Shown: positions 16,301-55,415 of the stretch, one piece after another
Layout of the letters: each line of letters begins with the position of its first letter
Numbering within the stretch: position 1 is the stretch's first letter
Assembly (NCBI GenBank): GCA_030833185.1
Contig: JAURHQ010000005.1
Coordinates: 1-55,820 of the forward strand
Source: Gammaproteobacteria bacterium
Lineage (GTDB): Bacteria > Pseudomonadota > Gammaproteobacteria > Ga0077536
Direction of reading: 5' to 3'
Length of the DNA: 55,820 nucleotides
Notes under the pieces: model-generated
The model's database searches: none
Told to the model about the DNA's origin: nothing
The model's input: only the letters and a program-made list of their open reading frames with translations
Program-made: the position numbers and the translations under genes

Positions 16301-18121
16301 TGGATGGATAAGCCCGCTCCAGGCGGTCGTCGCGTTGTTGAAGTCGTCTGGCGCGTAGCCAAGCATGGTGGCGAAGCGTTCATTGAAGTGCAGCACATCG
16401 GCAACGATATCCCAGTCCCAGACAGCCAGACGCGCGCCCTCCACCACGGCACTCAGGCGCTCGCGTTGCTCGTCCAGCACCCGGCTAGTCAACATGCGCA
16501 TGAACTCGCCGCCCGCCCGCCGGGCGGCCAGTGCCAGCAAGACCTCATCGTCTTCATGGCCGGAACAGGGTTTGTCGTCGAGAACCCAAACCAGTCCCAG
16601 AGTTTGGTCGTCCTGACCGGTAATGGGAAACGCACGGTAACTTTCGACGCCGGCGCCGTGAAAACGCGTTGGCAAATGAAACCGCGCGCCAACGCCCGAC
16701 GCGACCCGGAAGACCTCGCCAGCCACCAGTGGGATGGCGAAGGGTGTGTTGGCCACCGCCAGGCGGAAACCCGTCGAAGGCATGCCATCTTCCCAGTACG
16801 CCATCACATCGACGGTCGCCTGATCGGGCATCAAACGACCAATTCCCGCCCAGCGCGCGCCAAGTCCAAGGCACACCGCTTCCACAATGCGGTCCAGCAG
16901 ATCCTGGCCTGCATCGGCCTCGGCCAGCATTTCCAGACCACGACGCTGGCGCTCGCGCTCGGTCACATCGGTGCGAATCGAAAGGTATTGGTGGATAGCG
17001 CCCTCATCGTCAAACACCGGCACGATGGTGGATTGCACCCAATAAAGTTCGCCGCTGCGACGGCGATTCTGAATCAGCCCTCGCCACACCTTGCCTGAGG
17101 ACACGGTGTGCCAGAGATCGGTGTAGAAGGCGTCGCCGTGGGTGAATGACTTCAGGAGCCGATGGTTTTGTCCCAGCAGTTCCTCACGCGAGTACCCGCT
17201 GACCTCGCAGAACTTGTCGTTCACAAACCGGATATCGCCCTTCAGGTCGGCGACAGAGACAATGGCGTGATGGTCGACCGCCATACGCAGGGCCTGCAAG
17301 GAGGCATTGCGTTGTCGGAGATCCTGCTCGCGCAGCATCAGCCTCGCGCGGTCGACCTCCTGGCGTGACATCGTGCGGTTGAACGCCCGGGTGATGTCGG
17401 TGAGTTCATCGTTGCCGGACAGCACCACGCGCACGCCAAGCTCGCCCGCGCTGACTTTCTCAAAACCGGCTTTCAGCGCAGCCAGCCGCCGGCTGAACAC
17501 CCGGTCAAAAAAAACCCACAGGGCAAGCCCGCAGAGGATGGAAAAACCCGCGGAGATCAGCGCGCGCTGGTAGCGCAAACGCGACGCCGAGGCGAGCAAA
17601 GGCGCCAGATCCTGCCGCACCAGCAACCAGGCGTCAGGGGCTGGCTGGGCGTCGGTATCCGAAAACTTCACCGGCTCGAGCATCAGGGCGAAACGCTCCC
17701 CTCCCAGCAGCTTAGGCTCCGGGGTCTGCAAGGCGGTCGCGGTCAAGCCGGGGAAACGCTGGAAATCGAGCGCCTCGAGGGTCTGGCCCGGGGTCTCGAT
17801 CAGGCGGTATTGGCCGTCGATCAGGGCCGTTTCAACGACCTGCGGATCCTCGCGCAGCGCGGCCAAGCGCCGCGCCACCGCCCGCGTATCACCGTCGCGT
17901 AGATGGTGGGCGATGTGCATCGCCGTGGTAGCGACGCTGAGTTGCCGCGCCTGTTTGGCGTCGGCCAGTTCTCGCCCGCGGTCAAGGCCGGTATGGGCAA
18001 CAGCGCCCAGCAGGGCCGCCAACACCCCGGACAGCAGGATTGCCAGCGGAACCGTGCGTCTGAGCGGCCAGCGGGTCAGAAATTCACCGACCGCGGAAGC
18101 CCAGCCGCGGCGCGGAATCAC
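13364..18121 (-). CDS. Hybrid sensor histidine kinase (2TM-HAMP-PAS-GAF-multiple PAS-HisKA-HATPase-REC)
   Basis: HAMP (GNDEL), repeated PAS/PAC (WEWD, IHPDD, GxHLDITERK), AHDFNNIL, FDPFFSTK..GTGMGLS, REC (VDDE, DQTMP, KP). Confidence 0.93.
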   Translation of the reverse strand: MIPRRGWASAVGEFLTRWPLRRTVPLAILLSGVLAALLGAVAHTGLDRGRELADAKQARQLSVATTAMHIAHHLRDGDTRAVARRLAALREDPQVVETALIDGQYRLIETPGQTLEALDFQRFPGLTATALQTPEPKLLGGERFALMLEPVKFSDTDAQPAPDAWLLVRQDLAPLLASASRLRYQRALISAGFSILCGLALWVFFDRVFSRRLAALKAGFEKVSAGELGVRVVLSGNDELTDITRAFNRTMSRQEVDRARLMLREQDLRQRNASLQALRMAVDHHAIVSVADLKGDIRFVNDKFCEVSGYSREELLGQNHRLLKSFTHGDAFYTDLWHTVSSGKVWRGLIQNRRRSGELYWVQSTIVPVFDDEGAIHQYLSIRTDVTERERQRRGLEMLAEADAGQDLLDRIVEAVCLGLGARWAGIGRLMPDQATVDVMAYWEDGMPSTGFRLAVANTPFAIPLVAGEVFRVASGVGARFHLPTRFHGAGVESYRAFPITGQDDQTLGLVWVLDDKPCSGHEDDEVLLALAARRAGGEFMRMLTSRVLDEQRERLSAVVEGARLAVWDWDIVADVLHFNERFATMLGYAPDDFNNATTAWSGLIHPDDYTMATEAVAAHKNGLTPSYMTEHRLRAKDGSWVWVLDRGRVTERDAQGQPLRMAGVHLDITERKLAELEVRDERARFDMLIRAGNVGFWEWDLVAARTDVTSAVADLLDVAPGGQRDVKEWLKLIHPEDYDRFILAGQKHLKGETPYFSMEARFRAHDGWRWQLVNGQVVARGEDGRARRLVGTHLDITQLRLAEASGRDAAQRLQVTVEAADLGVWEWDRETGKLETNAWLERTLGFRPAEQAGREGWLLGWLEGEERERFNRFIADKLDAADELLQVETRIRDVAGHWKWINHRGRVIERDPSGRALRLSGVNVDITARKEAEDSLKVEQERLARVVAAARLGLWDLDLLNGRTVVNDWVLDLIGEARPDRAFERAEWATYFHPDDLPAMEAALDAHCAGITPFFEAEMRVRIANGQWLWIHSSGQVAARDSAGRPVRAAGVFQDVAARREAVSALETSEAKLRTVVEHSPVGIFLSDPAGTIIYVNPLLCELVGRSADACLNEAWTMLLDEGPRAQISAGWRAFLDAPEGTYEVEYRFERASSGLRVVRVQVAAIRLDGRVIGLVGAFNDLTEWTRTADERERLQRELQQSQKMDALGQLTGGIAHDFNNILASILGYVSLAQTMLPPEGTERIANYLAAVMSAGERARELVAKMLEFSRNAPREDLHPVDPAPLIEEVARMMKAIIPSSMQLVVHHAAAPTFALLDPSDLHQLLVNLIVNARDALGPHGQIDVRLLSPHRVRGVCSGCHGSVNGHYLVIEVEDNGSGIEPEVLSRVFDPFFSTKSPGKGTGMGLSVVHGILHRGRGHVLVESRPGQGTRFRLLFPPAPVSIGDLPAQQLVPAEAPRGQGQRILVVDDEPLVASYLSELFSLNGYTVDTAADGVEALERIDKTDQRYGLLLTDQTMPRMTGTELITRLRSVQPDLPIILCTGYSDAVDEQGALALGIREFVRKPVAPDALLRSVAAVIGSVAS

Positions 18122-19224
18122 TGACCGGGTTCTCTCAGCGGGGTGGGCAGATTGAGTTCCTCCTTGCTGCGCTGAATGCCTTCAAACAGCGACAGGCCAA
18201 GGTCTTCCCCCATATCACCCTGAACCATGAAGGTCTCGCGTTCACGTTCCACCAGATCAAGGAACACGTTGGTCAACGCCGGATCGCGCCAACCGCGCTC
18301 GGCCTCCTTGCGCATGATGCGAACCACTTCGTGGGTCGGCAGGGCCGGTTTATAGGGGCGGGCAAAGCTGAGCGCGTCGTAGATATCGCAGATCTGGAAA
18401 ACCCGCGCGAGCAGCGGAATTTCCTCGCCGTGCAGGCCATCGGGGTAGCCGCTACCGTCCCAACGCTCGTGGTGGGAGCGAATGATTTGCACCGTCTGAC
18501 GAAAACTTTTCAGCCCGCTACACAAGCGCTCGCCAATGATGGTGTGAGTTTTCATCACCGCCCACTCATCCGGCGTGAACCCACCCGGCTTCAGCAGAAT
18601 CTGTTCGGGGATGCCCAGCTTGCCGATGTCGTGCAGCACACCGCCGCGGCGTAGTGCCAATAAATCGCTGCCGCTCAAGCCGAGGGTTTCCCCGAAGCGC
18701 ACCGAGTACTGCGCCAGTCGCGTGCAATGGTCGCCGGTATTGCCATCTTTGGCTTCCACCATGCGGGCCAGCGCAAAAAGGACTGATTCGGCACTTTCCA
18801 ACTGGTCGGTCAAGCGCTTGCGATTAATGGCGGAGTCGATTCGGGCCACAAACTCCTGCGCGCTATAGGGCTTGTGGATGAAATCGGAGGCGCCGGCCCG
18901 CAAGCCCGACGTCAGCACGCTGGTGCTCCCCCCACCGCCCGTCACCATGATGATAGGCAGCAGCAGATTGCCGATGTCATCCCGGATCCGGCGACAAACC
19001 TCTTCGCCGTCGATGCCGGGCAGGCGCTTGTCGAGCACCATGACGTCGAAATCCTGGGTCGTCACGATATCCAGCGCCGTCATGCCATCAGCGGCTTCGA
19101 AGACTTCGTACTTGGGCGGTTGGAGAATGGCCTGGACCAGGGCGCGCTGGTCAGGTTCATCGTCGACGATCAGCACCTTGAAAGGCGCAGCGCCCTGATT
19201 GAGATAGTCAAACATCGACCGCAT
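18118..19224 (-). CDS. Response regulator with HD-GYP c-di-GMP phosphodiesterase domain (RpfG-like architecture)
   Basis: Start ATG 19224 with AGGAG RBS; REC domain then LHDIGK, HHERWDGSGYP, RPYK; 4-bp overlap with the kinase. Confidence 0.92.
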   Translation of the reverse strand: MRSMFDYLNQGAAPFKVLIVDDEPDQRALVQAILQPPKYEVFEAADGMTALDIVTTQDFDVMVLDKRLPGIDGEEVCRRIRDDIGNLLLPIIMVTGGGGSTSVLTSGLRAGASDFIHKPYSAQEFVARIDSAINRKRLTDQLESAESVLFALARMVEAKDGNTGDHCTRLAQYSVRFGETLGLSGSDLLALRRGGVLHDIGKLGIPEQILLKPGGFTPDEWAVMKTHTIIGERLCSGLKSFRQTVQIIRSHHERWDGSGYPDGLHGEEIPLLARVFQICDIYDALSFARPYKPALPTHEVVRIMRKEAERGWRDPALTNVFLDLVERERETFMVQGDMGEDLGLSLFEGIQRSKEELNLPTPLREPGQ

Positions 19225-19431
19225 CGTGATTACTCCTGCGACCCGCTGATGGCGGTCGGAGGTCTTGGGAACATCCGGCCTGCGCCCGGGAGTAACCCGA
19301 ACGACAGGGTTCAATCATAGCCGTGTGTATCGGGCCGAAGACAGCCTGTGTCGGGGTATCGGCCGCGCCCGCCTCCAACCGTAGGGCTTTTTGGTGCAAA
19401 TTTCCGCAGCCTGCCGGTAGCATGGCGTCTT

Positions 19432-47700: not shown

Positions 47701-49482
47701 ATGGTTGAAGGCGACTCAGGGCCTGCTGCATCAGGCACACAGTCAATTGCATCCGCAGTAGAGCATGCGGTGACCAAGAGTCAGGAGTTGTTTGAACAAT
47801 TCGCAGCCCGCAGTCAGGAGTTGACTGGCATCGTCGACCCGCTGGGGATTGGCGCAAGTTTTCAGCGCTTCGCCCTTCAACTTGCTCGAAACCCGCTACC
47901 TCTGTGGGAGACCCAGTGGCGTATCTGGATCGATGGCCTGAGCGTGCTACAGCAATCATTCATTCTCAGGGAAGATGCTGGGGCCGGCCGTGCCCAGACA
48001 TCGGAGGACCGAAGATTTCGGGACAGGGAGTGGACAAGCAATCCGCTTTTCGACTTTATCCGACATACCTATCTAATCTTGGCGAACAGCCTGATCCAGT
48101 TGACCTCGCATGCCGATGGGCTGGAGCCCAAAGACGCTCAGAAGGTCGCCTTCTACACCAGGCAGTTTGTCGATGCGATCTCTCCGAGCAATTTCGCATT
48201 GACTAACCCGGAGGTCGTACGCGCTACGCTCGAGCGTGGCGGTGCCAATCTGGTAGAAGGACTCAGAAATTTTCTTGACGATATCGACCTCGCAAGCGGG
48301 CAACTGCGCACGAAGATGGTGGACTCGTCGGCATTTGAACTCGGCAGAAACATTGCCACGAGCCTGGGCTCAGTCGTTTTTCAAAATGACTTGATGCAAC
48401 TCATTCAGTACGCGCCGACAACTGAGCGTGTTTACAGGCGCCCGCTGCTGATCATTCCGCCTTGGATTAACAAGTACTACGTGCTTGATTTGAAGCCAGA
48501 AAACTCTTTTATTCGCTGGGCGGTTAGCGAGGGCCACACCGTCTTCGTCATTTCCTGGGTTAATCCTGACGCAAAGCTAAGAGAAAAGGATTTCGCCGAC
48601 TATCTAAAAGAGGGTCCCCTCGCGGCCATGGATGCCATGGAGGCGGCGACTGGCGAGCGTAGTTTCAACCTGATCGGCTACTGTCTAGGCGGGACCTTGC
48701 TTGGTGCAATGCTGGCTTATCTGCGGCAGAAACAAGATGAGCGAATAAACGCTGCTACGTTTTTTACGGCGATGCTTGATTTTTCAGACCCTGGAGAACT
48801 CGGGGTATTCATCGATGAAAAGCAAGTGTGTCAACTTGAAAAGGAAATGGAGACACGCGGTTATCTTGATGGCAAGGAGATGGCCGCGACATTCAATTTG
48901 ATGCGCGCTAGTGACCTTATTTGGTCTTTCGTCATCAACAACTATCTTCTCGGTAAGACACCCGCCCCTTTCGACCTGCTTTATTGGAATTCCGACTCAA
49001 CGAGAATGCCCGCCCGAATGCACAGCACATACCTGCGAAAAATGTATATGCAGAACTTGCTGTGCAAGCCGGGCCAGTTCCGCATTGATGATGTTGCTCT
49101 CGATTTGAGTCGTGTCTCGGTCCCCTGTTGCTTCGTATCCGCCTTGGAAGACCACATCGCGCCCTGGAAATCTACGTTTGAGGGCGCAAAACTGTTCGGC
49201 GGCCCAGTCGAGTTTATCCTTGGGAAAGCCGGCCACATTGCGGGAATCATTAATCCCCCTGGACCGAAAGCTTATGGCCATTACACCGGACCAGAACCAG
49301 CAGGGGAGGCAGACGATTGGCTGCACGCCGCCACTTTTCATCAAGGGTCGTGGTGGCTTGCATGGGCGAAGTGGATAGAGCCACACGGTGGCGGACGGGT
49401 GCAGGCCAGAAAGCCGGGCGATCGCGCCCTGCCGCGACTAGAAGCGGCGCCGGGCAGTTACGCAAAAGTCAGGCTGGTATAG
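47701..49482 (+). CDS. phaC: Class I poly(R)-hydroxyalkanoate synthase
   Basis: PPWINKYY, lipase box GYCLGG, YWNSD, DHIAPW, GHIAG, APGSY. Confidence 0.96.
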   Translation: MVEGDSGPAASGTQSIASAVEHAVTKSQELFEQFAARSQELTGIVDPLGIGASFQRFALQLARNPLPLWETQWRIWIDGLSVLQQSFILREDAGAGRAQTSEDRRFRDREWTSNPLFDFIRHTYLILANSLIQLTSHADGLEPKDAQKVAFYTRQFVDAISPSNFALTNPEVVRATLERGGANLVEGLRNFLDDIDLASGQLRTKMVDSSAFELGRNIATSLGSVVFQNDLMQLIQYAPTTERVYRRPLLIIPPWINKYYVLDLKPENSFIRWAVSEGHTVFVISWVNPDAKLREKDFADYLKEGPLAAMDAMEAATGERSFNLIGYCLGGTLLGAMLAYLRQKQDERINAATFFTAMLDFSDPGELGVFIDEKQVCQLEKEMETRGYLDGKEMAATFNLMRASDLIWSFVINNYLLGKTPAPFDLLYWNSDSTRMPARMHSTYLRKMYMQNLLCKPGQFRIDDVALDLSRVSVPCCFVSALEDHIAPWKSTFEGAKLFGGPVEFILGKAGHIAGIINPPGPKAYGHYTGPEPAGEADDWLHAATFHQGSWWLAWAKWIEPHGGGRVQARKPGDRALPRLEAAPGSYAKVRLV

Positions 49483-49619: not shown

Positions 49620-49711
49620 GGAGAGGTGCCGGAGTGGCCGATCGGGACTGACTCGAAATCAGTTGTGCCCTTTGCTGGGCACCGGGGGTTCGAATCCCTC
49701 CCTCTCCGCCA
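49620..49711 (+). tRNA. tRNA-Ser (anticodon CGA)
   Basis: GGAGAGG/CCTCTCC acceptor stem, ACTGA-CTCGAAA-TCAGT anticodon arm, long variable arm, GGTTCGAATCC, encoded CCA. Confidence 0.97.
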
Positions 49712-49718
49712 ATTTCCT

Positions 49719-52301
49719 TCACTCATGTGCTGAACCTTCTTTGCCGCCTTGGCAGGTGCAGGCCGCGCGGTCCAAGCGCTGATTGAACCCTGTCATCGCC
49801 GCGCCTAATGCCTCCTCCAACTCAGAGGCAAAAGTCCGGCAGTTGAAACGCTCATCCCTTTCGCTTGTGTACTCAATTTGGCGTGACAGCGACGCGAGCC
49901 GGCATGCGCCGACAGTGCGCGAGGCCCCGCACAGCGAGTGCATTGCGTTTCGCATTTTCGTCGCGCCTATGCCGCCGTCCATGGCGCGCCGGACAACATC
50001 GATAAAACCATGAGCGTCTTCTTCAAATTCTTTGTAGAAACCCCGGGCTTCGTCTAGCTCCATATAGCCGAGCAGTTCTTCAAATAACTCGTCATCCACG
50101 TCGGGTTCCGCTGCCAGGGTTTGGCCGCCCTCGCCAGCAGAGGGCTTGGTAGTCTTTTCCAGCGTGGCGTTCTGCCGCTTCCCCATCAGCTCTTGCACAG
50201 TTTGAATGAGCTGTGAGGGGCGGAGCGGCTTAATCGCAAATTTGGCGATTCCTACCAAATCAGCATCTGCAACCAAGTCAGGACGGTTGTCGGCGGTCAC
50301 CATGACTATTGGGGTTCGCGCAGGGTCATTAGCCGCTGCAAAATTATAAATACGCGCAACGTCGAGGCCGTCCAGCTCAGGCATGTGCATGTCGATCATG
50401 GCCAAGTCGTAAGCGCCTGTCTGAAGTTCATCAAGCGCGCGCTCTCCGTCGCTGACCACATGACAGCGATAACCCGCCCGCTCGAGCGTCATTCGAGCTA
50501 TCAACTGATTGGTACTGTTGTCTTCCGCGATCAGAATTAGCCCCTCCATCGGTGGGCTTTCAGGCTCAACCACCGTCTCTTCATCTGAGAAGAGTTGTGC
50601 TGCCAAGTGGAACGCGCGATGTAGCTCATGCCTGTCAGAGGCAGCCGTTAGAAATGAGGTCAGACCCTCACGAAATGCAATCGGTCGCTGGTCCTCCGTT
50701 CCAAAGCCAAAAACTATCGGAATTGCTTGGCGGCCAGTTCGTGCGATGTGTTCCCTTAGCATTGGCATGACCGTTTCGGCGATCCGACAGTCAATAACGA
50801 AACAGGTCTTTGACGTCAGCAAGTTGAGTTGCCGGTGTAACTCCCCGATGCCAACCTCAATAATCTCCAAGCTTGGAAAGGTTTTGAGAAGAGCGCGAAC
50901 CGGCCCGCTCTCGTAGCCAAACCCCGTAACAACCACTTGGTGCGGCAAACGAAAATCAGGGGTCGGGAGGGGCGGTTGGTGGGGCAGTCTCAGCTCTACG
51001 TCGATACGAGTACCAACGCCGGGCGCCGACTTGATAACGATACTACCGTCCATTAGCTGAATGAGGTCGCGCGCAATCGTTGTGCCGAGCCCAGACCCGT
51101 CGTGCTGTCTGGTTACGCTGTCATCGGCCTGCGAGAACGGGTCGAACACACGCGTAAGATAGTCCTGTTCCATTCCGGGTCCGGTATCAACCACGCTAAG
51201 CACGATAGCTTCACGGTCCCGCGGTGTGCCCGCGGCGAGGGCGGCAATTCGCACGCCCCCTTCGCTAGTAAATTTCACCGCGTTCCCCGCCAAATTTATG
51301 ATCACTTCCTGAATTTGCCTGGGCGACCCCATAAGTTGATGTTCAATTCGCGGATCTACGAAGAGGCTCAAAGAAAGTCCCTTCGCGCTCGCCTGTGGCA
51401 GCAGGATATCCAGCGTTTCGGCCATCGTACGATGGAGTTCCATTTCCTCAATTTGCAGCACGAAGGAGCCCGACTCATATTTGCTGCTATCGAGAATTCG
51501 GTTGATCAGATCGAGTAGCGTATTGGATGAAGAGCGGATCAGCCGCGTCATATCGAGACGCTGGTCTTCAGACATATCGTTGGTGAGGAGTTCGGTCAGC
51601 GCAATTACCCCGTGTAGCGGAGTGCGAAGTTCGTGGCTCATTTTGGCGACAAAATCGGCCTTCGCACGCGCCGCAGATTCGGCTCGCGCAAGCGCGCCGT
51701 ACAGGAGCCGGATTAAATACCCGGCGTAGAGCGGCACCACCAACAGTCCTCCGCTGAGGCCGAGTGCAAGAGCTGGAAACGCCTGCCAAAAATCGGACGC
51801 CCAGATAACGATGGCAAAACCCACCAAAGAGGCGCTTACACCCGCGTAAAGGTAACGCGGACCATAGCGTACGCCGTAGCCAATTGTGGTCCACAGATAG
51901 AGTGCGAAAACACCCGCCAGCGTTTGGTCTCCAAAATAGAGAATCCAACTGATCCCGACGTTGTCCAAGATGATGCTGGCTACTCGTTGACCGACCCTCC
52001 AGGGATCCGTCGCCGGGCGCCTTGCAATAAACCTCGCCCAGACTAAGAGTGTGATGGCTGAAAGAGACGTAAAAAGGAAGGTGTAGCCGACAAGGCGAAG
52101 TTCAAGCGTGGGTTGAAGATGGCAGGCAAGCAAAGCCAGCGCCACCAGCGCGAGGTTCATTGCGCAGCGGATTTTAGCCTGTGCTAGCTCGCCCAAAGGG
52201 GCTGCAGAGTAGGTCCGACTCTGGACTCGGATACTGGGCTCGATGGAGTCGGGGGTTTTAGGTTTCCCGCCAGAGAAGCTAACCGTCTGCGTATCGGACA
52301 T
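49719..52301 (-). CDS. rpfC: RpfC-like hybrid sensor kinase (5TM-HisKA-HATPase-REC-HPt)
   Basis: ExAQxxIR, WTTIGYGVRYG and VPLY as in recalled RpfC; MSHELRTP; REC DMHMP; HPt HSLCGAS. Confidence 0.82.
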   Translation of the reverse strand: MSDTQTVSFSGGKPKTPDSIEPSIRVQSRTYSAAPLGELAQAKIRCAMNLALVALALLACHLQPTLELRLVGYTFLFTSLSAITLLVWARFIARRPATDPWRVGQRVASIILDNVGISWILYFGDQTLAGVFALYLWTTIGYGVRYGPRYLYAGVSASLVGFAIVIWASDFWQAFPALALGLSGGLLVVPLYAGYLIRLLYGALARAESAARAKADFVAKMSHELRTPLHGVIALTELLTNDMSEDQRLDMTRLIRSSSNTLLDLINRILDSSKYESGSFVLQIEEMELHRTMAETLDILLPQASAKGLSLSLFVDPRIEHQLMGSPRQIQEVIINLAGNAVKFTSEGGVRIAALAAGTPRDREAIVLSVVDTGPGMEQDYLTRVFDPFSQADDSVTRQHDGSGLGTTIARDLIQLMDGSIVIKSAPGVGTRIDVELRLPHQPPLPTPDFRLPHQVVVTGFGYESGPVRALLKTFPSLEIIEVGIGELHRQLNLLTSKTCFVIDCRIAETVMPMLREHIARTGRQAIPIVFGFGTEDQRPIAFREGLTSFLTAASDRHELHRAFHLAAQLFSDEETVVEPESPPMEGLILIAEDNSTNQLIARMTLERAGYRCHVVSDGERALDELQTGAYDLAMIDMHMPELDGLDVARIYNFAAANDPARTPIVMVTADNRPDLVADADLVGIAKFAIKPLRPSQLIQTVQELMGKRQNATLEKTTKPSAGEGGQTLAAEPDVDDELFEELLGYMELDEARGFYKEFEEDAHGFIDVVRRAMDGGIGATKMRNAMHSLCGASRTVGACRLASLSRQIEYTSERDERFNCRTFASELEEALGAAMTGFNQRLDRAACTCQGGKEGSAHE

Positions 52302-52363
52302 AAGCCTCGCGCCGTGTTCGGTAGAAATTGCTGTGGGTCTAAGCGCTTTTTTTTGCGTTTCAG

Positions 52364-53746
52364 TTAACCCAGCGCACCGTCGTAATGTTTAAGAACCAGT
52401 GCGGCGTTGTGGCCACCGAACCCAAAGTTCTGGCTTAGTGCATACCTCAGTGGTGCCTCCGTCGTCTCCAATGCAAAATTCAGCTTCGCAATTGGCTTAC
52501 TAAGGTTCCTTGAGGCATGAACCGTCTGATGTTTTAGGGACAGTGCCGTAACGACAAACTCAAGCGCTCCGGCGGCGCCAATCGAATGCCCAAGAATAGA
52601 CTTTGTGCTGTTTAGCAATGGCTTGTCACCGAATGTATTTTCGATGAATGACGCCTCAGTCGCATCATTGAGAACGGTGCCGGTTCCGTGGGTATTGATG
52701 TAATCAATCGAATCCGGCGTGAGGGCAGCGTCAACTAAAGCTGCCCGCAGCATCTGCGTGAATGCATTGTGCTGCGGGGAAATAGCTGCGATCGAGAATG
52801 CATCATTGCTCTGACCAAAGCCTACCAGCTCTGCAATGATTTGTTTCTCCGCGCCGCGCCGCTTAACAGATGCGCCGGTCTCCAGCACCGCCATCCCGGC
52901 GCCGCCTTCACTGAAGAGGAATCCGCTTCGGTCTGCGTCGAAAGGGCGGTTCTCGGTTCCTACGCCTGTAAATGGACTAGCAAGTGTCTGCAATCTATCG
53001 AAGCCCATGAACACCCCACCAGCGCGATCGCTCAAATGCTCTATTCCGCCGGCCAGGGCAATGTCTACCTCGCCGGCCAGAAGGGCACGATAGGCCTTAC
53101 CGATCGCAACCGTCCCAGAGGCGCAGGCCGCGCAAAATGTCTCTGCCACCGCTTGCGCGCCGATGCGGAGAGCAATGTTTGCCGCAAGTGCATTAGGCAT
53201 CGTCTGACAGATCACCATGGGATTAACGCGCGGATGCGCGCCCAGAGCGTCTGCTAACTCTTGAACGAGCAAATCATCGGGGCGCTCATCCCTGAGTGCT
53301 TTTAGCGTATCTTTCATTCCCGCCAGAAGGTGGGCCGCGTAGTTGTCGAAGGGGCTTCTGGCGCCACCGAGACCAGTGCCAACAAACACACCTACTCGCT
53401 CGGGCGCCACATCGGTAAAAGCATAGCCTCCACCGGGCGTTGCGCTCGTCGCACGGGCTAAACCTGCCGAATTGGAGGCCATTTCCGTAGAGACAACGCC
53501 AAGCAACGCCGGCCGGGACAGTAATAGTTCCTCTGATCGCCGGATGCCGAACGAGCGATAATCGGGCTCTACTAGAGGCGCCCAGACCCGACTAGTGGAG
53601 TTGTAGTAGCGTTCCCAACGCGACGGTACGTCAGTGGCTAGACTGCGACTCTCAACACAGGCGTCCCACAAGACATCTGCGCCCACACCTGCGGCCGACA
53701 CTGCACCGAGCCCGGTGACGAAAACCCTATCCGCGTATTTTCCCAC
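52364..53746 (-). CDS. Beta-ketoacyl-ACP synthase (FabF-like, divergent)
   Basis: Catalytic triad ACAS, THGTGT, LGHSIGAAG; NFGFGGHNA. Confidence 0.93.
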   Translation of the reverse strand: MGKYADRVFVTGLGAVSAAGVGADVLWDACVESRSLATDVPSRWERYYNSTSRVWAPLVEPDYRSFGIRRSEELLLSRPALLGVVSTEMASNSAGLARATSATPGGGYAFTDVAPERVGVFVGTGLGGARSPFDNYAAHLLAGMKDTLKALRDERPDDLLVQELADALGAHPRVNPMVICQTMPNALAANIALRIGAQAVAETFCAACASGTVAIGKAYRALLAGEVDIALAGGIEHLSDRAGGVFMGFDRLQTLASPFTGVGTENRPFDADRSGFLFSEGGAGMAVLETGASVKRRGAEKQIIAELVGFGQSNDAFSIAAISPQHNAFTQMLRAALVDAALTPDSIDYINTHGTGTVLNDATEASFIENTFGDKPLLNSTKSILGHSIGAAGALEFVVTALSLKHQTVHASRNLSKPIAKLNFALETTEAPLRYALSQNFGFGGHNAALVLKHYDGALG

Positions 53747-53748
53747 TC

Positions 53749-54015
53749 CTACGCCTTCTGTTCGGCTAGCGCGGTCGCAATAAAGTCACGTAGCCATCCC
53801 ATAGTGACACCAGAAGCGGGGATAGCGTCCGCATTAAATTCAACATCAAACTCAGCGTCGAAGGCGATCATCAAAGCGATCACTTGCATCGAATCCGCAC
53901 CGAGATCTTCCCTTATCAACAAGTCCTCATTGAACGTGGCAGTTGGCGTTTGCAACACCTCATGCACGACAGCTGCGATACGAGATTCTAAAAGCGCAAC
54001 CGACTGGTCCGACAT
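53749..54015 (-). CDS. Acyl carrier protein
   Basis: 88-aa acidic protein, DLGADSM phosphopantetheine motif; start ATG 54015 after GGAG. Confidence 0.9.
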   Translation of the reverse strand: MSDQSVALLESRIAAVVHEVLQTPTATFNEDLLIREDLGADSMQVIALMIAFDAEFDVEFNADAIPASGVTMGWLRDFIATALAEQKA

Positions 54016-54360
54016 AGTTGCTGTGCTCCAACACAAAGTCCAAGAAAACGTAATCTGACGCCAAGCACGAAAGTCTTGCGATAGCGACCATGCTAGAGCA
54101 TCGGTGGCAAACGCCCAAGCGCGGTTCCGAAGTCGAGAATCACCCAAAAGATCTAGGTGGTCTAAATCACAGACAGGACAGTAAAGGTGCCTCGGACGCG
54201 TAAGTAATTCATTTGAGTGATGCGCAGCATTGCAGCTGCCCGCTTACGGTCTGAACTCGCTGGGATGATACGAAGTTCCATTGTCTTATTCACGAGTTCT
54301 GGCCCCGGGTAGAGAGAGCCTCAAAGGCCGATGCCGCGAGCCAGCCATCAGGAGGGTGTA

Positions 54361-55197
54361 ATGAACCGTTCAGCATTCGGCAATTCCAATGCCGCTTTCA
54401 AAATAAAGCAACTAGTAAACACTAGCGCTCCATTTTCAGTGCGCCGAACCGGCACCGCCGTTTGGTGTCACAGGTCGGCTACCACCCAAAGCTTTGTAAC
54501 GTTCGAGCAGTTGAGCGCAATGCGAGACATTGATGCCCAGTTGATGACCGCTGGGCTGGGGGACGTAAGTTACAAGGTCCTTTGTTCTGACCATCCCCGT
54601 TTCTTTTCGCTCGGGGGTGACCTGAGCCTATTCATCCGCTGTGTCGAAGAACAGGATGAGCAATCACTTAGCGAGTATGCAATCCTGGCGATCAGAGCCA
54701 TTTGGGCCAACGCGTCCGGGCTCGGCGCGCGACAAATCAATACAATCGCGCTGGTCGCAGGCGAGGCTCAAGGCGGCGGTTTTGAGGCGGCCCTTTCATG
54801 CGACTTGTTAGTCGCTGAGGTTGGTACATCGTTCGGCTTCCCCGAAACGCTTTTTGGCATGTTCCCGGGCATGGGGGGGGAACTTCTTCTCAGGGGGCGC
54901 GTGGATAACGATTTGGCTAAGAAGCTGGTAACGAGCGCGCACCGCTATCCAGCTGAGATGTTGTTCGAAATGGGCATCGTCGACTACTTAGCACCCAAGG
55001 GCACTGGCCCAGAGACGGTGCAGGAGGCAATACGGACTCAGAACCAAGCGGACCTGTTCGAACGGCGACAGAAGCGGCTTGAAACAGTTAGGTACACCGA
55101 ACTTTTGGATTCAGTTGACGTGTGGGTGGCGCAAGCGATGTCGCTTTCAGCGAGACAGTTGCGGGCGATGAAGTACATCTGTAGCGCTCAAAACTGA
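54361..55197 (+). CDS. rpfF: RpfF-like DSF synthase (crotonase fold)
   Basis: FSLGGDL, GGGFEAALSC, FPETLFGMFPGMG (both catalytic Glu present), RpfF-type C-terminal helix WVAQAMSL..RAM; start ATG 54361 after GGAGG. Confidence 0.82.
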   Translation: MNRSAFGNSNAAFKIKQLVNTSAPFSVRRTGTAVWCHRSATTQSFVTFEQLSAMRDIDAQLMTAGLGDVSYKVLCSDHPRFFSLGGDLSLFIRCVEEQDEQSLSEYAILAIRAIWANASGLGARQINTIALVAGEAQGGGFEAALSCDLLVAEVGTSFGFPETLFGMFPGMGGELLLRGRVDNDLAKKLVTSAHRYPAEMLFEMGIVDYLAPKGTGPETVQEAIRTQNQADLFERRQKRLETVRYTELLDSVDVWVAQAMSLSARQLRAMKYICSAQN

Positions 55198-55256: not shown

Positions 55257-55290
55257 AAAAAAAACCCCGGGAGCGGCTCCCGGGGTTTTT
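55257..55290. terminator. Bidirectional intrinsic terminator (rrn on minus, rpfF on plus)
   Basis: A8-CCCCGGGAG-CGG-CTCCCGGGG-T5. Confidence 0.93.
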
Positions 55291-55298
55291 GGGTTTGA

Positions 55299-55415
55299 AC
55301 CTGGCGATGACCTACTTTCGCATGGTTGAGCCCACACTATCATCGGCGCAGAGCGGTTTCACTTCTGAGTTCGAGATGGATTCAGGTGGTTCCCGCTCGC
55401 TATTGTCGCCAGGCA
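55299..55415 (-). rRNA. rrf: 5S rRNA
   Basis: Minus strand TGCCTGGCGAC...GAACTCAGAAGTGAAAC...GCCGATGATAGT...GAAAGTAGGTCATCGCCAGG. Confidence 0.97.

What the first reader, a model, noticed from the sequence alone, without database searches (positions are those of the whole stretch)
49719..55197. DSF-type quorum-sensing module with its own ACP and ketosynthase
Seen: an ACP-ketosynthase-rpfC run (gaps 2 and 62 bp) divergent from an rpfF-like gene, packed between tRNA-Ser (7 bp gap) and the rrn terminator; no rpfG, rpfB or rpfR. Known: RpfF dehydrates and releases 3-hydroxyacyl-ACP drawn from housekeeping fatty acid synthesis, and canonical clusters (rpfBFCG, rpfF-rpfR) have no dedicated ACP or KS. 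Inference: a private elongation branch builds a non-standard cis-2-enoic acid signal for a cognate sensor, i.e. a potentially new DSF-family system.
Basis: partly seen in the sequence, partly recalled or inferred. Interest (0 to 1): 0.86.

Follow-up and report, generated by a model that had tools for sequence, protein, structure and literature searches.

The report
DSF-type signalling locus with private ACP and ketosynthase
A fatty-acid quorum-sensing gene set (RpfF-like signal synthase plus RpfC-like sensor) sits beside its own acyl carrier protein and chain-extending enzyme, a gene arrangement kept in many related aquatic bacteria but not found in the papers searched.

Summary
The genes are a hybrid kinase (49719-52301, -), a FabF-like ketosynthase (52364-53746, -), an ACP (53749-54015, -) and a divergent crotonase (54331-55197, +). 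They lie between tRNA-Ser and the rrn terminator.

The crotonase belongs to the RpfF/DSF-synthase family. Both catalytic Glu are kept, and solved DSF synthases are its best sequence and fold matches. It forms a deep, separate clade.

The kinase carries an RpfC-type membrane input domain. Its REC domain matches RpfC's REC best.

The ketosynthase keeps its Cys-His-His triad and the ACP keeps its serine. Both are extra to a housekeeping acpP-fabF pair elsewhere in the genome.

The linkage is not unique. ECH, ACP and KS lie together in 13 of 15 fetched loci from the same bacterial family (9 genera). A second module type (ACP, KS, usually a CMAS methyltransferase, with RpfF/RpfC/RpfG) occurs in other Gammaproteobacteria, including cultured Sedimenticola selenatireducens. 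Tailoring genes (desaturase, TauD fusion) vary by lineage.

Six literature searches found no description. The product and the order of reactions remain inferred. Verdict: a real, conserved, new variant of DSF-family signalling.

The parts
49620..49711 (+). tRNA-Ser (CGA), left boundary of the module
   Evidence: ARAGORN and Rfam RF00005. The same tRNA lies beside the HK in relatives L113, L117 and L127.
49719..52301 (-). RpfC-type hybrid sensor histidine kinase. It has a membrane input domain (about residues 1-205), HisKA, HATPase_c, an unassigned 148-aa spacer, REC and Hpt.
   Evidence: Pfam domains. The N-terminal 205 aa hit 54 of 58 RpfF-adjacent kinases, including those of Lysobacteraceae, at E 1e-12 to 1e-22. 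The REC domain's best PDB match is the RpfC REC, 3m6m_D, E 3.4e-18. The spacer has no Pfam match.
52364..53746 (-). Dedicated FabF-like beta-ketoacyl-ACP synthase ('type A', with clade-specific insertions in the N-terminal half)
   Evidence: Pfam KS N and C domains. The fabF equivalog scores 279 bits against a cut-off of 494. Cys208, His353, Lys382, His387 and F443-G-G are invariant in alignment A3. It is 36% identical to the housekeeping FabF on contig C133. It falls in a clade of RpfF-linked KS.
53749..54015 (-). Dedicated acyl carrier protein (88 aa), 2 bp upstream of the KS
   Evidence: PP-binding, 24.8 bits against a cut-off of 20.8. The LGADSM serine aligns with the serine of housekeeping AcpP. 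It is one of three PP-binding matches (ACPs) in the genome; another lies beside the housekeeping FabF.
54205..54223 (.). Conserved 19-nt element (TAATTCATTTGAGTGATGC) in the divergent ACP/crotonase intergenic region. It is a candidate operator or promoter element.
   Evidence: It is the only conserved block in a MAFFT alignment of 8 type-A intergenic regions and is present in 8 of 8. A degenerate consensus hits the genome twice, against 0-1 hits in 5 shuffles, so the element is locus-specific and not a regulon motif.
54331..55197 (+). RpfF-family crotonase (putative DSF-type signal synthase); likely start at 54361
   Evidence: NF006452 scores 221.8 bits against a cut-off of 177; the RpfF equivalog scores 162 against 550. 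The best PDB sequence hit is Xcc RpfF 3m6m, E 3e-41, with the GGGFE and FPE motifs kept. The model has pLDDT 89.9 and its top 11 fold matches are all DSF synthases. It sits in clade A of the tree.
55260..55290 (.). Hairpin terminator shared by the crotonase (+) and the rrn operon (-), right boundary
   Evidence: 14-pair stem with 8 GC pairs, flanked by A and T runs. The 5S rRNA is at 55299-55413 (-).

Best explanation
This is a DSF-family cell-cell signalling locus in which the signal's acyl chain is made on a private carrier.

Shown:
- an RpfF-family crotonase with intact catalytic residues;
- an RpfC-type sensor kinase;
- a catalytically intact elongating ketosynthase and a holo-competent ACP, both additional to the housekeeping acpP-fabF pair;
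- co-inheritance of these genes across one bacterial family.

Inferred mechanism:
1. The KS condenses an acyl primer of defined length with malonyl on the dedicated ACP. Malonyl is loaded by housekeeping FabD.
2. Housekeeping FabG reduces the 3-oxoacyl-ACP.
3. The RpfF-like enzyme dehydrates the 3-hydroxyacyl-ACP to a cis-2-enoyl thioester and hydrolyses it, releasing a free unsaturated fatty acid.
4. The membrane domain of the kinase senses that acid.
5. As in Xanthomonas, the kinase's REC domain may hold the synthase in check.

Using a private ACP would fix chain length and keep the RpfF thioesterase away from bulk acyl-AcpP. Lineage-specific tailoring genes (desaturase, TauD fusion, and CMAS in the second module type) suggest that the signal structure differs between lineages. 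The output response regulator is not encoded in the locus.
For: Crotonase:
- Xcc RpfF is the best PDB sequence hit at 144.7 bits. B. cenocepacia DfsA and Cronobacter RpfF score 96 bits, and generic crotonases score 53 bits or less.
- G95-G96, G148-150, E152 and E172 are invariant in 41 relatives.
- The AF2 model has pLDDT 89.9. Its Foldseek ranks 1-11 are RpfF, RpF-1, DfsA and Cronobacter RpfF, with TM 0.79-0.82.
- All 81 RpfF-like proteins separate from the genome's own crotonases on a branch with 99* support.

Kinase:
- The input domain is homologous to that of 54 of 58 RpfF-adjacent kinases, including Lysobacteraceae RpfC.
- The REC domain's best PDB hit is the RpfC REC.

Complex model of crotonase + REC:
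- The score is 0.80 and the best of 3 controls is 0.01. That mark was reached by 58 of 80 solved complexes and by 2 of 110 mismatched pairs.
- The runs share at least 94% of their contacts, and the partner's pLDDT is at least 84.
- A like complex (3M6M) is solved, so this result shows likeness and does not show binding.

KS and ACP:
- The KS triad is intact and the ACP serine is present.
- A housekeeping acpP-fabF pair lies on contig C133.

Linkage:
- ECH+ACP+KS lie together in 13 of 15 fetched loci of the same family, with the HK in 12 of those 13.
- Across the 36 other genomes of the family, 14 have both the KS and an ECH, 1 has the KS only (at a contig cut), 4 have an ECH only (weaker matches), and 17 have neither.
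- Among 80 RpfF-like loci from other species, 10 have a complete KS beside the ECH or its kinase. They fall in at least 3 ECH clades.
- All RpfF-linked KS group apart from housekeeping FabF, with 100* support.
- Type B and L083 loci also carry an RpfG-like REC-HD-GYP gene.

Tailoring genes.

Weak hint of expression: contigs from 4 RNA-library runs cover the HK, the ACP plus the intergenic region, and small parts of the KS and ECH.
Against: - No product was measured, and the order of KS and crotonase action is assumed.
- The locus has no reductase, malonyl transferase, PPTase or response regulator. The genome shows one AcpS-type PPTase.
- Type-A crotonases are the most divergent branch of the family. 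They score 222-235 bits on NF006452, against 289-361 for the other seven loci scanned, and they lie far below the RpfF equivalog cut-off.
- Exceptions to the linkage exist. In G014 the ECH+HK pair lies 1.28 Mb from its type-A KS, and no ACP was found there. L057, a clade-A ECH, has no ACP-KS upstream, and its contig ends 0.8 kb downstream.
- The 13 linked loci come from one family with partly conserved chromosomal context (rrn, tRNA-Ser, PhaC). They are related, not independent.
- Only the best 80 of at least 592 RpfF-like loci were inspected.
- The KS outgroup in the tree is only two sequences.
- The complex model may be recalled from 3M6M.
- RNA-library contigs do not prove transcription, and no silent control stretch was laid.
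Confidence: 0.6

Rival explanations
1. The ACP and KS are functionally unrelated neighbours, for example a lipid-remodelling pair. The RpfF-like enzyme draws 3-hydroxyacyl-ACP from housekeeping fatty acid synthesis, as in Xanthomonas.
For: Canonical RpfF needs no private ACP or KS (passages of PMC5941067; introduction passage of PMC13711827). In G014 the ECH+HK pair stands without an adjacent ACP-KS. 69 of the 80 RpfF-like loci show no KS hit near the ECH or kinase (68 no hit at all; L017's is 8.7 kb away and groups with housekeeping FabF). Part of the conservation may be inherited chromosomal context beside the rrn operon.
Against: The genes stay together where the flanks differ (L122-L126, L011) and after a rearrangement (L113). 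KS and ECH are gained or lost together within the family. ACP-KS pairs of a related KS clade sit in RpfF/RpfC/RpfG loci of unrelated lineages in other gene orders.
Confidence: 0.12
2. The locus makes a specialised lipid or bioactive fatty acid that is not a quorum-sensing signal. The crotonase would serve as the dehydratase or isomerase of a small dedicated elongation system (FabM/FabA-FabB-like logic, recalled), and the kinase would only regulate it.
For: The locus looks like a biosynthetic cluster. Variable tailoring genes occur: an FA desaturase in L122, L125 and L126, a TauD fusion in L011, and CMAS in type B. In L125 an MMPL exporter replaces the kinase. No response regulator is present in the locus.
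Against: The crotonase is nearest to enzymes shown to release cis-2 acids and keeps their residues. The partner kinase has the RpfC input domain and an RpfC-like REC that is modelled onto the synthase. Type B and L083 loci include RpfG-like regulators.
Confidence: 0.15
3. The order is reversed. The RpfF-like enzyme first makes a cis-2-enoyl thioester, and the KS then extends it on the private ACP. This would give a dienoic or cis-4 and longer unsaturated acid, a NodE-like skipping of enoyl reduction (recalled).
For: The KS is a true condensing enzyme with clade-specific insertions in the N-terminal half. A dedicated ACP+KS pair making unusual unsaturated acyl chains for a signal is known for NodF/NodE (NodF named as a specialised ACP in passages of PMC9386255; the chemistry is recalled).
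Against: No evidence bears on the order either way. RpfF-family enzymes are also thioesterases, so they would tend to release the chain before extension (established for Xcc RpfF; abstract of PMC13660987 in the listing).
Confidence: 0.1

Closest known systems
Xanthomonas rpfB-rpfF / rpfC-rpfG DSF system (RpfF-RpfC REC complex, PDB 3M6M)
   Same: RpfF-family synthase with both catalytic Glu. Hybrid kinase with a homologous membrane input domain, HisKA, HATPase, REC and Hpt. REC most like RpfC's and modelled onto the synthase.
   Different: No rpfB or rpfG in the locus. The synthase is divergently paired with a dedicated ACP and KS. The kinase is transcribed with ACP-KS and is not convergent with rpfF. 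The crotonase forms a separate deep clade, and the kinase has an extra 148-aa spacer.
Burkholderia/Cronobacter RpfF-RpfR BDSF system (DfsA 5FUS, 6DGN)
   Same: Same synthase fold and family (fold ranks 9-11).
   Different: The sensor here is a membrane kinase, not a PAS-GGDEF-EAL protein. The sequence is closer to Xcc RpfF (144.7 bits against 96). One type-B locus (L020) does carry a GGDEF-EAL protein in place of the kinase.
Rhizobial NodF/NodE (specialised ACP + KS for the unsaturated acyl chain of Nod factors); also the AcpXL cluster
   Same: A private ACP and a FabF-like KS borrow the remaining steps from housekeeping fatty acid synthesis to build the acyl part of a signal. NodF and AcpXL are named as specialised ACPs in PMC9386255 (passages). 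The role of NodE is recalled.
   Different: No homology beyond the general ACP and KS families was tested. The release enzyme here is an RpfF-type crotonase, and the product is presumably a free acid.
Mesorhizobium three-gene AHL circuit (luxR-luxI plus a linked crotonase-superfamily gene), PMC10470506
   Same: A quorum-sensing circuit that needs an extra linked acyl-chain enzyme to make an unusual, highly selective signal (abstract and outline read).
   Different: It uses AHL chemistry with an acyl-CoA-type LuxI. There the crotonase is the accessory enzyme. Here the crotonase is the synthase, and the ACP and KS are the accessories.

Membership tests
DSF synthase (RpfF family, crotonase superfamily) | Crotonase fold closest to solved DSF synthases | tested here: met
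   Pfam ECH_1. The model has pLDDT 89.9. Foldseek ranks 1-11 are Xcc RpfF, RpF-1, DfsA and Cronobacter RpfF; generic crotonases follow.
DSF synthase (RpfF family, crotonase superfamily) | Two catalytic glutamates 20 residues apart (Xcc E141/E161) and oxyanion-hole glycines | tested here: met
   E152 and E172, G95-G96 and G148-G150 are invariant in 41 sequences and align with GGGFE and PE of 3m6m. The residue roles come from a passage of PMC9040811.
DSF synthase (RpfF family, crotonase superfamily) | Curated family score | tested here: inconclusive
   The RpfF equivalog NF053515 scores 162 bits against a cut-off of 550, so it is not met. NF006452 scores 221.8 against 177, so it is met. NF006452 also covers the matched segments of the Lysobacteraceae RpfF genes at 338-361 bits; those segments (241-244 aa) score 317-415 on NF053515.
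DSF synthase (RpfF family, crotonase superfamily) | Dehydratase plus thioesterase activity on 3-hydroxyacyl-ACP giving a cis-2 acid | not testable with these tools
   Needs enzymology or metabolite analysis.
DSF synthase (RpfF family, crotonase superfamily) | Interaction with the sensor's REC domain (as in 3M6M) | tested here: met
   Model level only. The score is 0.80 and the best of 3 controls is 0.01. The mark was reached by 58 of 80 solved complexes and 2 of 110 mismatched pairs. A like complex is solved, so the pass shows likeness and does not show binding.
RpfC-type sensor kinase | Membrane input domain homologous to that of RpfC | tested here: met
   The N-terminal 205 aa match Lysobacteraceae RpfF-adjacent kinases at 30-37% identity, E 1e-11 to 1e-15. 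Overall they match 54 of 58 such kinases. Four or five hydrophobic segments were found by a hydropathy scan. No Pfam model exists for this domain.
RpfC-type sensor kinase | HisKA-HATPase-REC-Hpt phosphorelay architecture with acceptor residues | tested here: met
   Pfam domains. The H-box SHELRTP and the Hpt motif HSLCGAS are seen in the translation. The REC Asp is invariant in alignment A2.
RpfC-type sensor kinase | Cognate REC-HD-GYP regulator (RpfG) encoded beside it | tested here: not met
   None was found in the locus or in the fetched flanks of 15 family loci. Three REC-HD-GYP genes lie elsewhere in the genome at 32-36% identity to RpfG-like proteins.
Elongating beta-ketoacyl-ACP synthase (FabF/FabB type) | Cys-His-His triad, active-site Lys, GFGG loop | tested here: met
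   Cys208, His353, Lys382, His387 and F443-G444-G445 are invariant in 22 sequences and align with T. thermophilus FabF 1j3n.
Elongating beta-ketoacyl-ACP synthase (FabF/FabB type) | Identity with housekeeping FabF | tested here: not met
   TIGR03150 scores 279 bits against a cut-off of 493.75. It is 36% identical to the genome's FabF on C133, which lies beside acpP. It falls in a separate clade.
Acyl carrier protein | PP-binding fold with the phosphopantetheine serine (DSx) | tested here: met
   PF00550 scores 24.8 bits against a cut-off of 20.8. The LGADSM serine aligns with the DSL serine of AcpP in 17 ACPs.
Canonical rpfBFCG cluster | rpfB (acyl-CoA ligase) and rpfG next to rpfF/rpfC | tested here: not met
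   Neither is present at 47.5-55.8 kb. The canonical order is seen in Luteimonas L070 for comparison.

The most novel reading that the evidence does not exclude
RpfF-family synthases coupled to a private ACP and ketosynthase form an unrecognised fourth architecture of DSF-type signalling. It behaves like a small biosynthetic gene cluster. Lineage-specific tailoring enzymes (membrane desaturase, a fused TauD dioxygenase, CMAS-type methyltransferase) would diversify the fatty-acid signal into private, species-selective channels in environmental Proteobacteria. The dedicated carrier would also remove the need for RpfB-type repair of thioesterase damage.
Probability: 0.4. Interest if true: 0.75.

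Novelty: new variant of a known kind. Interest (0 to 1): 0.62.

Why it matters
DSF signals are thought to be skimmed from housekeeping fatty acid synthesis. A 2026 paper states that rpfF is known in three operon architectures (introduction passage of PMC13711827). A conserved architecture with its own carrier, condensing enzyme and variable tailoring genes would have three consequences.

- The chemical space of DSF-family signals would be wider than cis-2 acids of ordinary chain types.
- It would show how a promiscuous thioesterase can be insulated from lipid synthesis.
- It would give genome miners a recognisable 'DSF biosynthetic cluster' signature.

A cultured carrier of the related type-B module (Sedimenticola selenatireducens DSM 17993, L013) makes the idea testable at the bench.

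Tried and rejected

- Six literature searches found no paper linking RpfF to a dedicated ACP or KS. These cover only the held library. Supplementary files were not opened, and the operon survey of PMC13711827 may list more architectures in figures or supplements that I could not see.

- I considered the HMG-CoA-synthase beta-branching cassette (ACP + decarboxylating KS + ECH) and rejected it. No HMGS is present, and the KS keeps its active-site Cys.

- I considered faster-than-background divergence of the module as a sign of diversifying selection and dropped it. Same-genus PhaC is only 65-68% identical, against ECH 47-50%, KS 55-58% and HK 50-60%, so the GTDB genus is simply deep.

- I considered that ACP-KS replaces RpfB. 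Acyl-CoA-ligase genes are near the ECH in 1 of 10 ACP-KS loci and in 11 of the other 70, so there is no clear contrast.

- Pfam at E up to 10 found nothing for the kinase's 148-aa spacer and only two chance-level matches (E 0.12 and 5.9) for its membrane domain.

- My first degenerate motif pattern was mis-specified and matched nothing, not even the window's own site. A corrected regular expression was run. It gave 2 genome hits against 0-1 in 5 shuffles, so there is no regulon.

- The sigma-70 scan gave 1 site against 2.8 expected, which is uninformative.

- Parts of the KS and crotonase without RNA-library contigs are not interpretable. No silent control stretch was laid, so transcription is not shown.

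- Not done: the KS was not folded, and the search of protein representatives, the protein-atlas search and the two remaining homologous-protein searches were not used.

- L017's KS (8.7 kb away, groups with housekeeping FabF) and L050's KS fragment at a contig edge were not counted as linked.

- L009, L010 and L011 give the same matches as L116, L118 and L123 (identical identities and contig lengths). They were counted once in the KS tree and in the family counts.

This call adds that field and changes nothing else of substance.

Full report
**Observation.** The window is one whole contig (C554) of a 744-contig MAG that is 93% complete.

- tRNA-Ser(CGA) is at 49620-49711 (+).
- An 860-aa hybrid kinase is at 49719-52301 (-).
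- A 460-aa ketosynthase is at 52364-53746 (-).
- An ACP ORF is at 53749-54147 (-). Its probable ATG start at 54015 gives 88 aa.
- A crotonase is at 54331-55197 (+). Its probable start is M11 at 54361.
- The 5S rRNA is at 55299-55413 (-), and the 23S runs off the contig.
- The gaps of 2, 62 and 7 bp are exact.
- A 14-pair hairpin with A and T runs at 55260-55290 is the rrn terminator and, by position, also the crotonase terminator.
- The locus itself has no rpfG, rpfB or rpfR. A REC-HD-GYP gene lies at 18118-19314 (-) in the same window, and two more lie elsewhere in the genome.

**The crotonase.**

- It passes NCBIfam NF006452 (221.8 bits, cut-off 177). It does not pass the narrow RpfF equivalog (162 bits, cut-off 550).
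- NF006452 also covers the RpfF genes of Lysobacteraceae loci that have the canonical rpfB-rpfF/rpfC-rpfG order.
- Against PDB sequences, Xanthomonas RpfF is the best hit at 144.7 bits, E 3e-41. The Burkholderia and Cronobacter BDSF synthases follow at 96 bits. DspI and generic crotonases score 53 bits or less.
- The GGGFE and (F/L)PE motifs holding the two catalytic glutamates are kept, and they are invariant in 41 relatives.
- An AlphaFold model (pLDDT 89.9) has solved DSF synthases as its top 11 Foldseek matches.
- In a tree of 81 RpfF-like proteins rooted on three crotonases of the same genome, all RpfF-likes sit beyond a long branch with 99* support. The window's protein lies in a clade of five with 100* support (clade A), distinct from the Lysobacteraceae clade.
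- It is therefore a member of the DSF-synthase family in the wide sense, on its most divergent branch.

**The kinase.**

- Pfam finds HisKA, HATPase_c, REC and Hpt.
- The first 205 residues have four or five hydrophobic segments and no Pfam match.
- They are homologous to the N-terminal regions of 54 of 58 kinases that lie next to RpfF-like genes, including the Lysobacteraceae ones.
- The REC domain's best PDB hit out of all receiver domains is the RpfC REC of entry 3M6M.
- A complex model of crotonase plus REC scored 0.80, and the best of 3 controls scored 0.01. That mark was reached by 58 of 80 solved complexes and 2 of 110 mismatched pairs. The runs agreed in at least 94% of contacts, and the partner's pLDDT was at least 84.
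- 3M6M is a solved RpfF-RpfC(REC) complex. The pass therefore shows that this pair looks like RpfF/RpfC. It does not show that the pair binds.

**The ACP and KS.**

- The KS aligns with FabF structures. It keeps Cys208, His353, Lys382, His387 and the FGG loop, so it is a true condensing enzyme and not a chain-length factor or a decarboxylase.
- It scores far below the fabF equivalog cut-off and carries clade-specific insertions in its N-terminal half.
- The ACP has the LGADSM serine.
- The genome has a normal acpP-fabF pair on contig C133, a third ACP, and one AcpS-type transferase. The pair in this locus is therefore extra to the housekeeping set.

**Is the linkage conserved?**

Among the 80 best RpfF-like loci in one-genome-per-species contigs (at least 592 matched), the counts are as follows:
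- 10 have a complete KS beside the crotonase or its kinase;
- one more has a KS fragment at a contig edge;
- one has a housekeeping-like KS 8.7 kb away.

The linked loci fall into three types.

- **Type A** (window, L009, L010, L011). ACP and a 454-460-aa KS are divergent from the crotonase.
- **Type B** (L012, L013 = Sedimenticola selenatireducens DSM 17993, L020, L026, L027, L044).
  - An ACP and a 401-407-aa KS lie beside RpfF/RpfC. A separate ACP ORF was found in five of the six; L044's was not resolved from its 441-aa KS ORF.
  - A CMAS-family methyltransferase is present in five of the six.
  - An RpfG-like gene is present in L012, L013 and L044.
  - L020 has a GGDEF-EAL protein in place of the kinase.
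- **L083** (Oxalobacteraceae). RpfG-like, a small ORF, KS, ECH and HK occur in another order.

Searching 60 relatives gave these results.

- The type-A KS is in 15 of 36 other genomes of the same family and in none of 24 other families of the class.
- In the 15 fetched loci, ECH+ACP+KS lie together in 13, with the kinase in 12 of those.
- One locus is cut by a contig end.
- One genome (G014) has the KS alone, 1.28 Mb from an ECH+HK pair.
- One locus (L113) is rearranged, with the tRNA between the ECH and the HK, yet it keeps all four genes within 6 kb.
- Across the family, 14 genomes have both genes, 1 has the KS only, 4 have only a weaker ECH, and 17 have neither.
- Several loci share the rrn/tRNA-Ser/PhaC context, so much of this conservation is vertical inheritance with losses. 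Others have quite different flanks.
- In a KS tree, all RpfF-linked KS (15 type A, 6 type B, L083) form one group with 100* support, apart from the genome's FabF and L017's KS. The outgroup is only two sequences.

**Tailoring and accessory genes.**

- In L011 the crotonase is fused to a TauD-family dioxygenase (652 aa).
- L122, L125 and L126 have a membrane fatty-acid desaturase directly after the crotonase.
- L125 has an MMPL transporter where the kinase usually sits.
- HDOD proteins lie nearby in three loci.
- This variability is what one expects of a small biosynthetic cluster whose product differs between lineages.

**Mechanism.** The best-supported reading is a DSF-type circuit whose acyl chain is handed to a private carrier.

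1. The KS condenses a primer with malonyl-ACP.
2. Housekeeping FabG reduces the product.
3. The RpfF-like enzyme dehydrates and hydrolyses it.
4. The RpfC-like kinase senses the released acid, and its REC domain may restrain the synthase.

Gene identities, intact catalytic residues, extra-copy status and co-inheritance are shown. The order of the steps, the product, the borrowed enzymes and the output regulator are inferred. Precedents for private ACP/KS pairs (NodF/NodE, AcpXL) and for a quorum-sensing circuit with an added acyl-chain enzyme (Mesorhizobium, PMC10470506) exist (the NodE chemistry is recalled).

**Other evidence.**

- A 19-nt element at 54205-54223 is the only conserved block in eight type-A divergent intergenic regions. 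It is essentially unique in the genome. It is a candidate operator for autoregulation.
- Contigs from four RNA-library runs cover most of the kinase (about 95% identity, so a related strain), the ACP plus the intergenic region (99%), and small parts of the KS and crotonase. This is a weak hint of expression only.
- Near-identical DNA occurs in aquatic metagenomes. Runs X2-X6, from four studies, hold 58-72% of the sampled words.

**Novelty.**

- Six full-text searches found no report of RpfF with a dedicated ACP or KS.
- A 2026 paper states that rpfF is known in three operon architectures (passage).
- Known work places DSF precursors in the housekeeping FAS cycle, with FabH and a lone FabG2 as modifiers (abstracts and passages).
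- I rate this a new variant of a known kind. It is real and conserved, and it is testable through a cultured carrier of the sister module.

Noticed in passing
L013:9785-19002 (Sedimenticola selenatireducens DSM 17993); also L012, L020, L026, L027, L044: A second module type. RpfF-like and RpfC-like genes lie with an ACP (77-83 aa), a 401-407-aa FabF-like KS and, in 5 of 6 loci, a CMAS-family (cyclopropane/methyl-branch) methyltransferase. L012, L013 and L044 also have an RpfG-like REC-HD-GYP gene. This suggests methylated or cyclopropanated DSF-type signals in a cultured organism.
   Followed up: partly
L011:9875-11833 (+): The RpfF-like crotonase is fused in one 652-aa ORF to a TauD/TfdA-family Fe/2OG dioxygenase. 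A GAF-GGDEF protein, an AMP-ligase and an HDOD protein lie nearby.
   Followed up: partly
L122:6489-7379, and the equivalent genes in L125 and L126: A membrane fatty-acid desaturase (PF00487, 294-296 aa) lies directly downstream of the type-A crotonase in three genomes. In L125 an MMPL-family transporter (790 aa) follows the KS where the kinase usually is.
   Followed up: partly
window 54205-54223: A conserved 19-nt element with a short inverted repeat (TCA-NN-TGA core) lies in the divergent ACP/crotonase intergenic region. It is present in 8 of 8 aligned type-A loci and is not repeated elsewhere in the genome beyond chance.
   Followed up: partly
window 18118-19314 (-): A REC-HD-GYP response regulator (RpfG-like architecture, 34-36% identical to RpfG-like proteins of canonical loci) lies 30 kb from the module. 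Two similar genes are on contigs C72 and C210. Any of them could be the missing output regulator.
   Followed up: partly
window 50538-50981 (-), kinase residues 441-588: A 148-aa stretch between HATPase_c and REC has no Pfam match. By eye its pattern of hydrophobic strands resembles a degenerate receiver domain.
   Followed up: partly
L121 and L132 (genome G014): The type-A KS stands alone, with no ACP found, between a malic-enzyme gene and a PEP carboxylase gene. The matching crotonase and kinase lie 1.28 Mb away. This is a natural 'split' variant of the module.
   Followed up: partly
window 47701-49482 (+): A class I PHA synthase (TIGR01838, 691.6 bits) lies just beyond the tRNA-Ser. The PhaC/tRNA-Ser/module/rrn order is shared by several same-family genomes.
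   Followed up: partly
L009 (record title): The public title of this MAG record names Klebsiella pneumoniae. Its locus shares the module and rrn-flanked synteny with the Gammaproteobacteria MAGs studied here, so the label looks doubtful.
   Followed up: no
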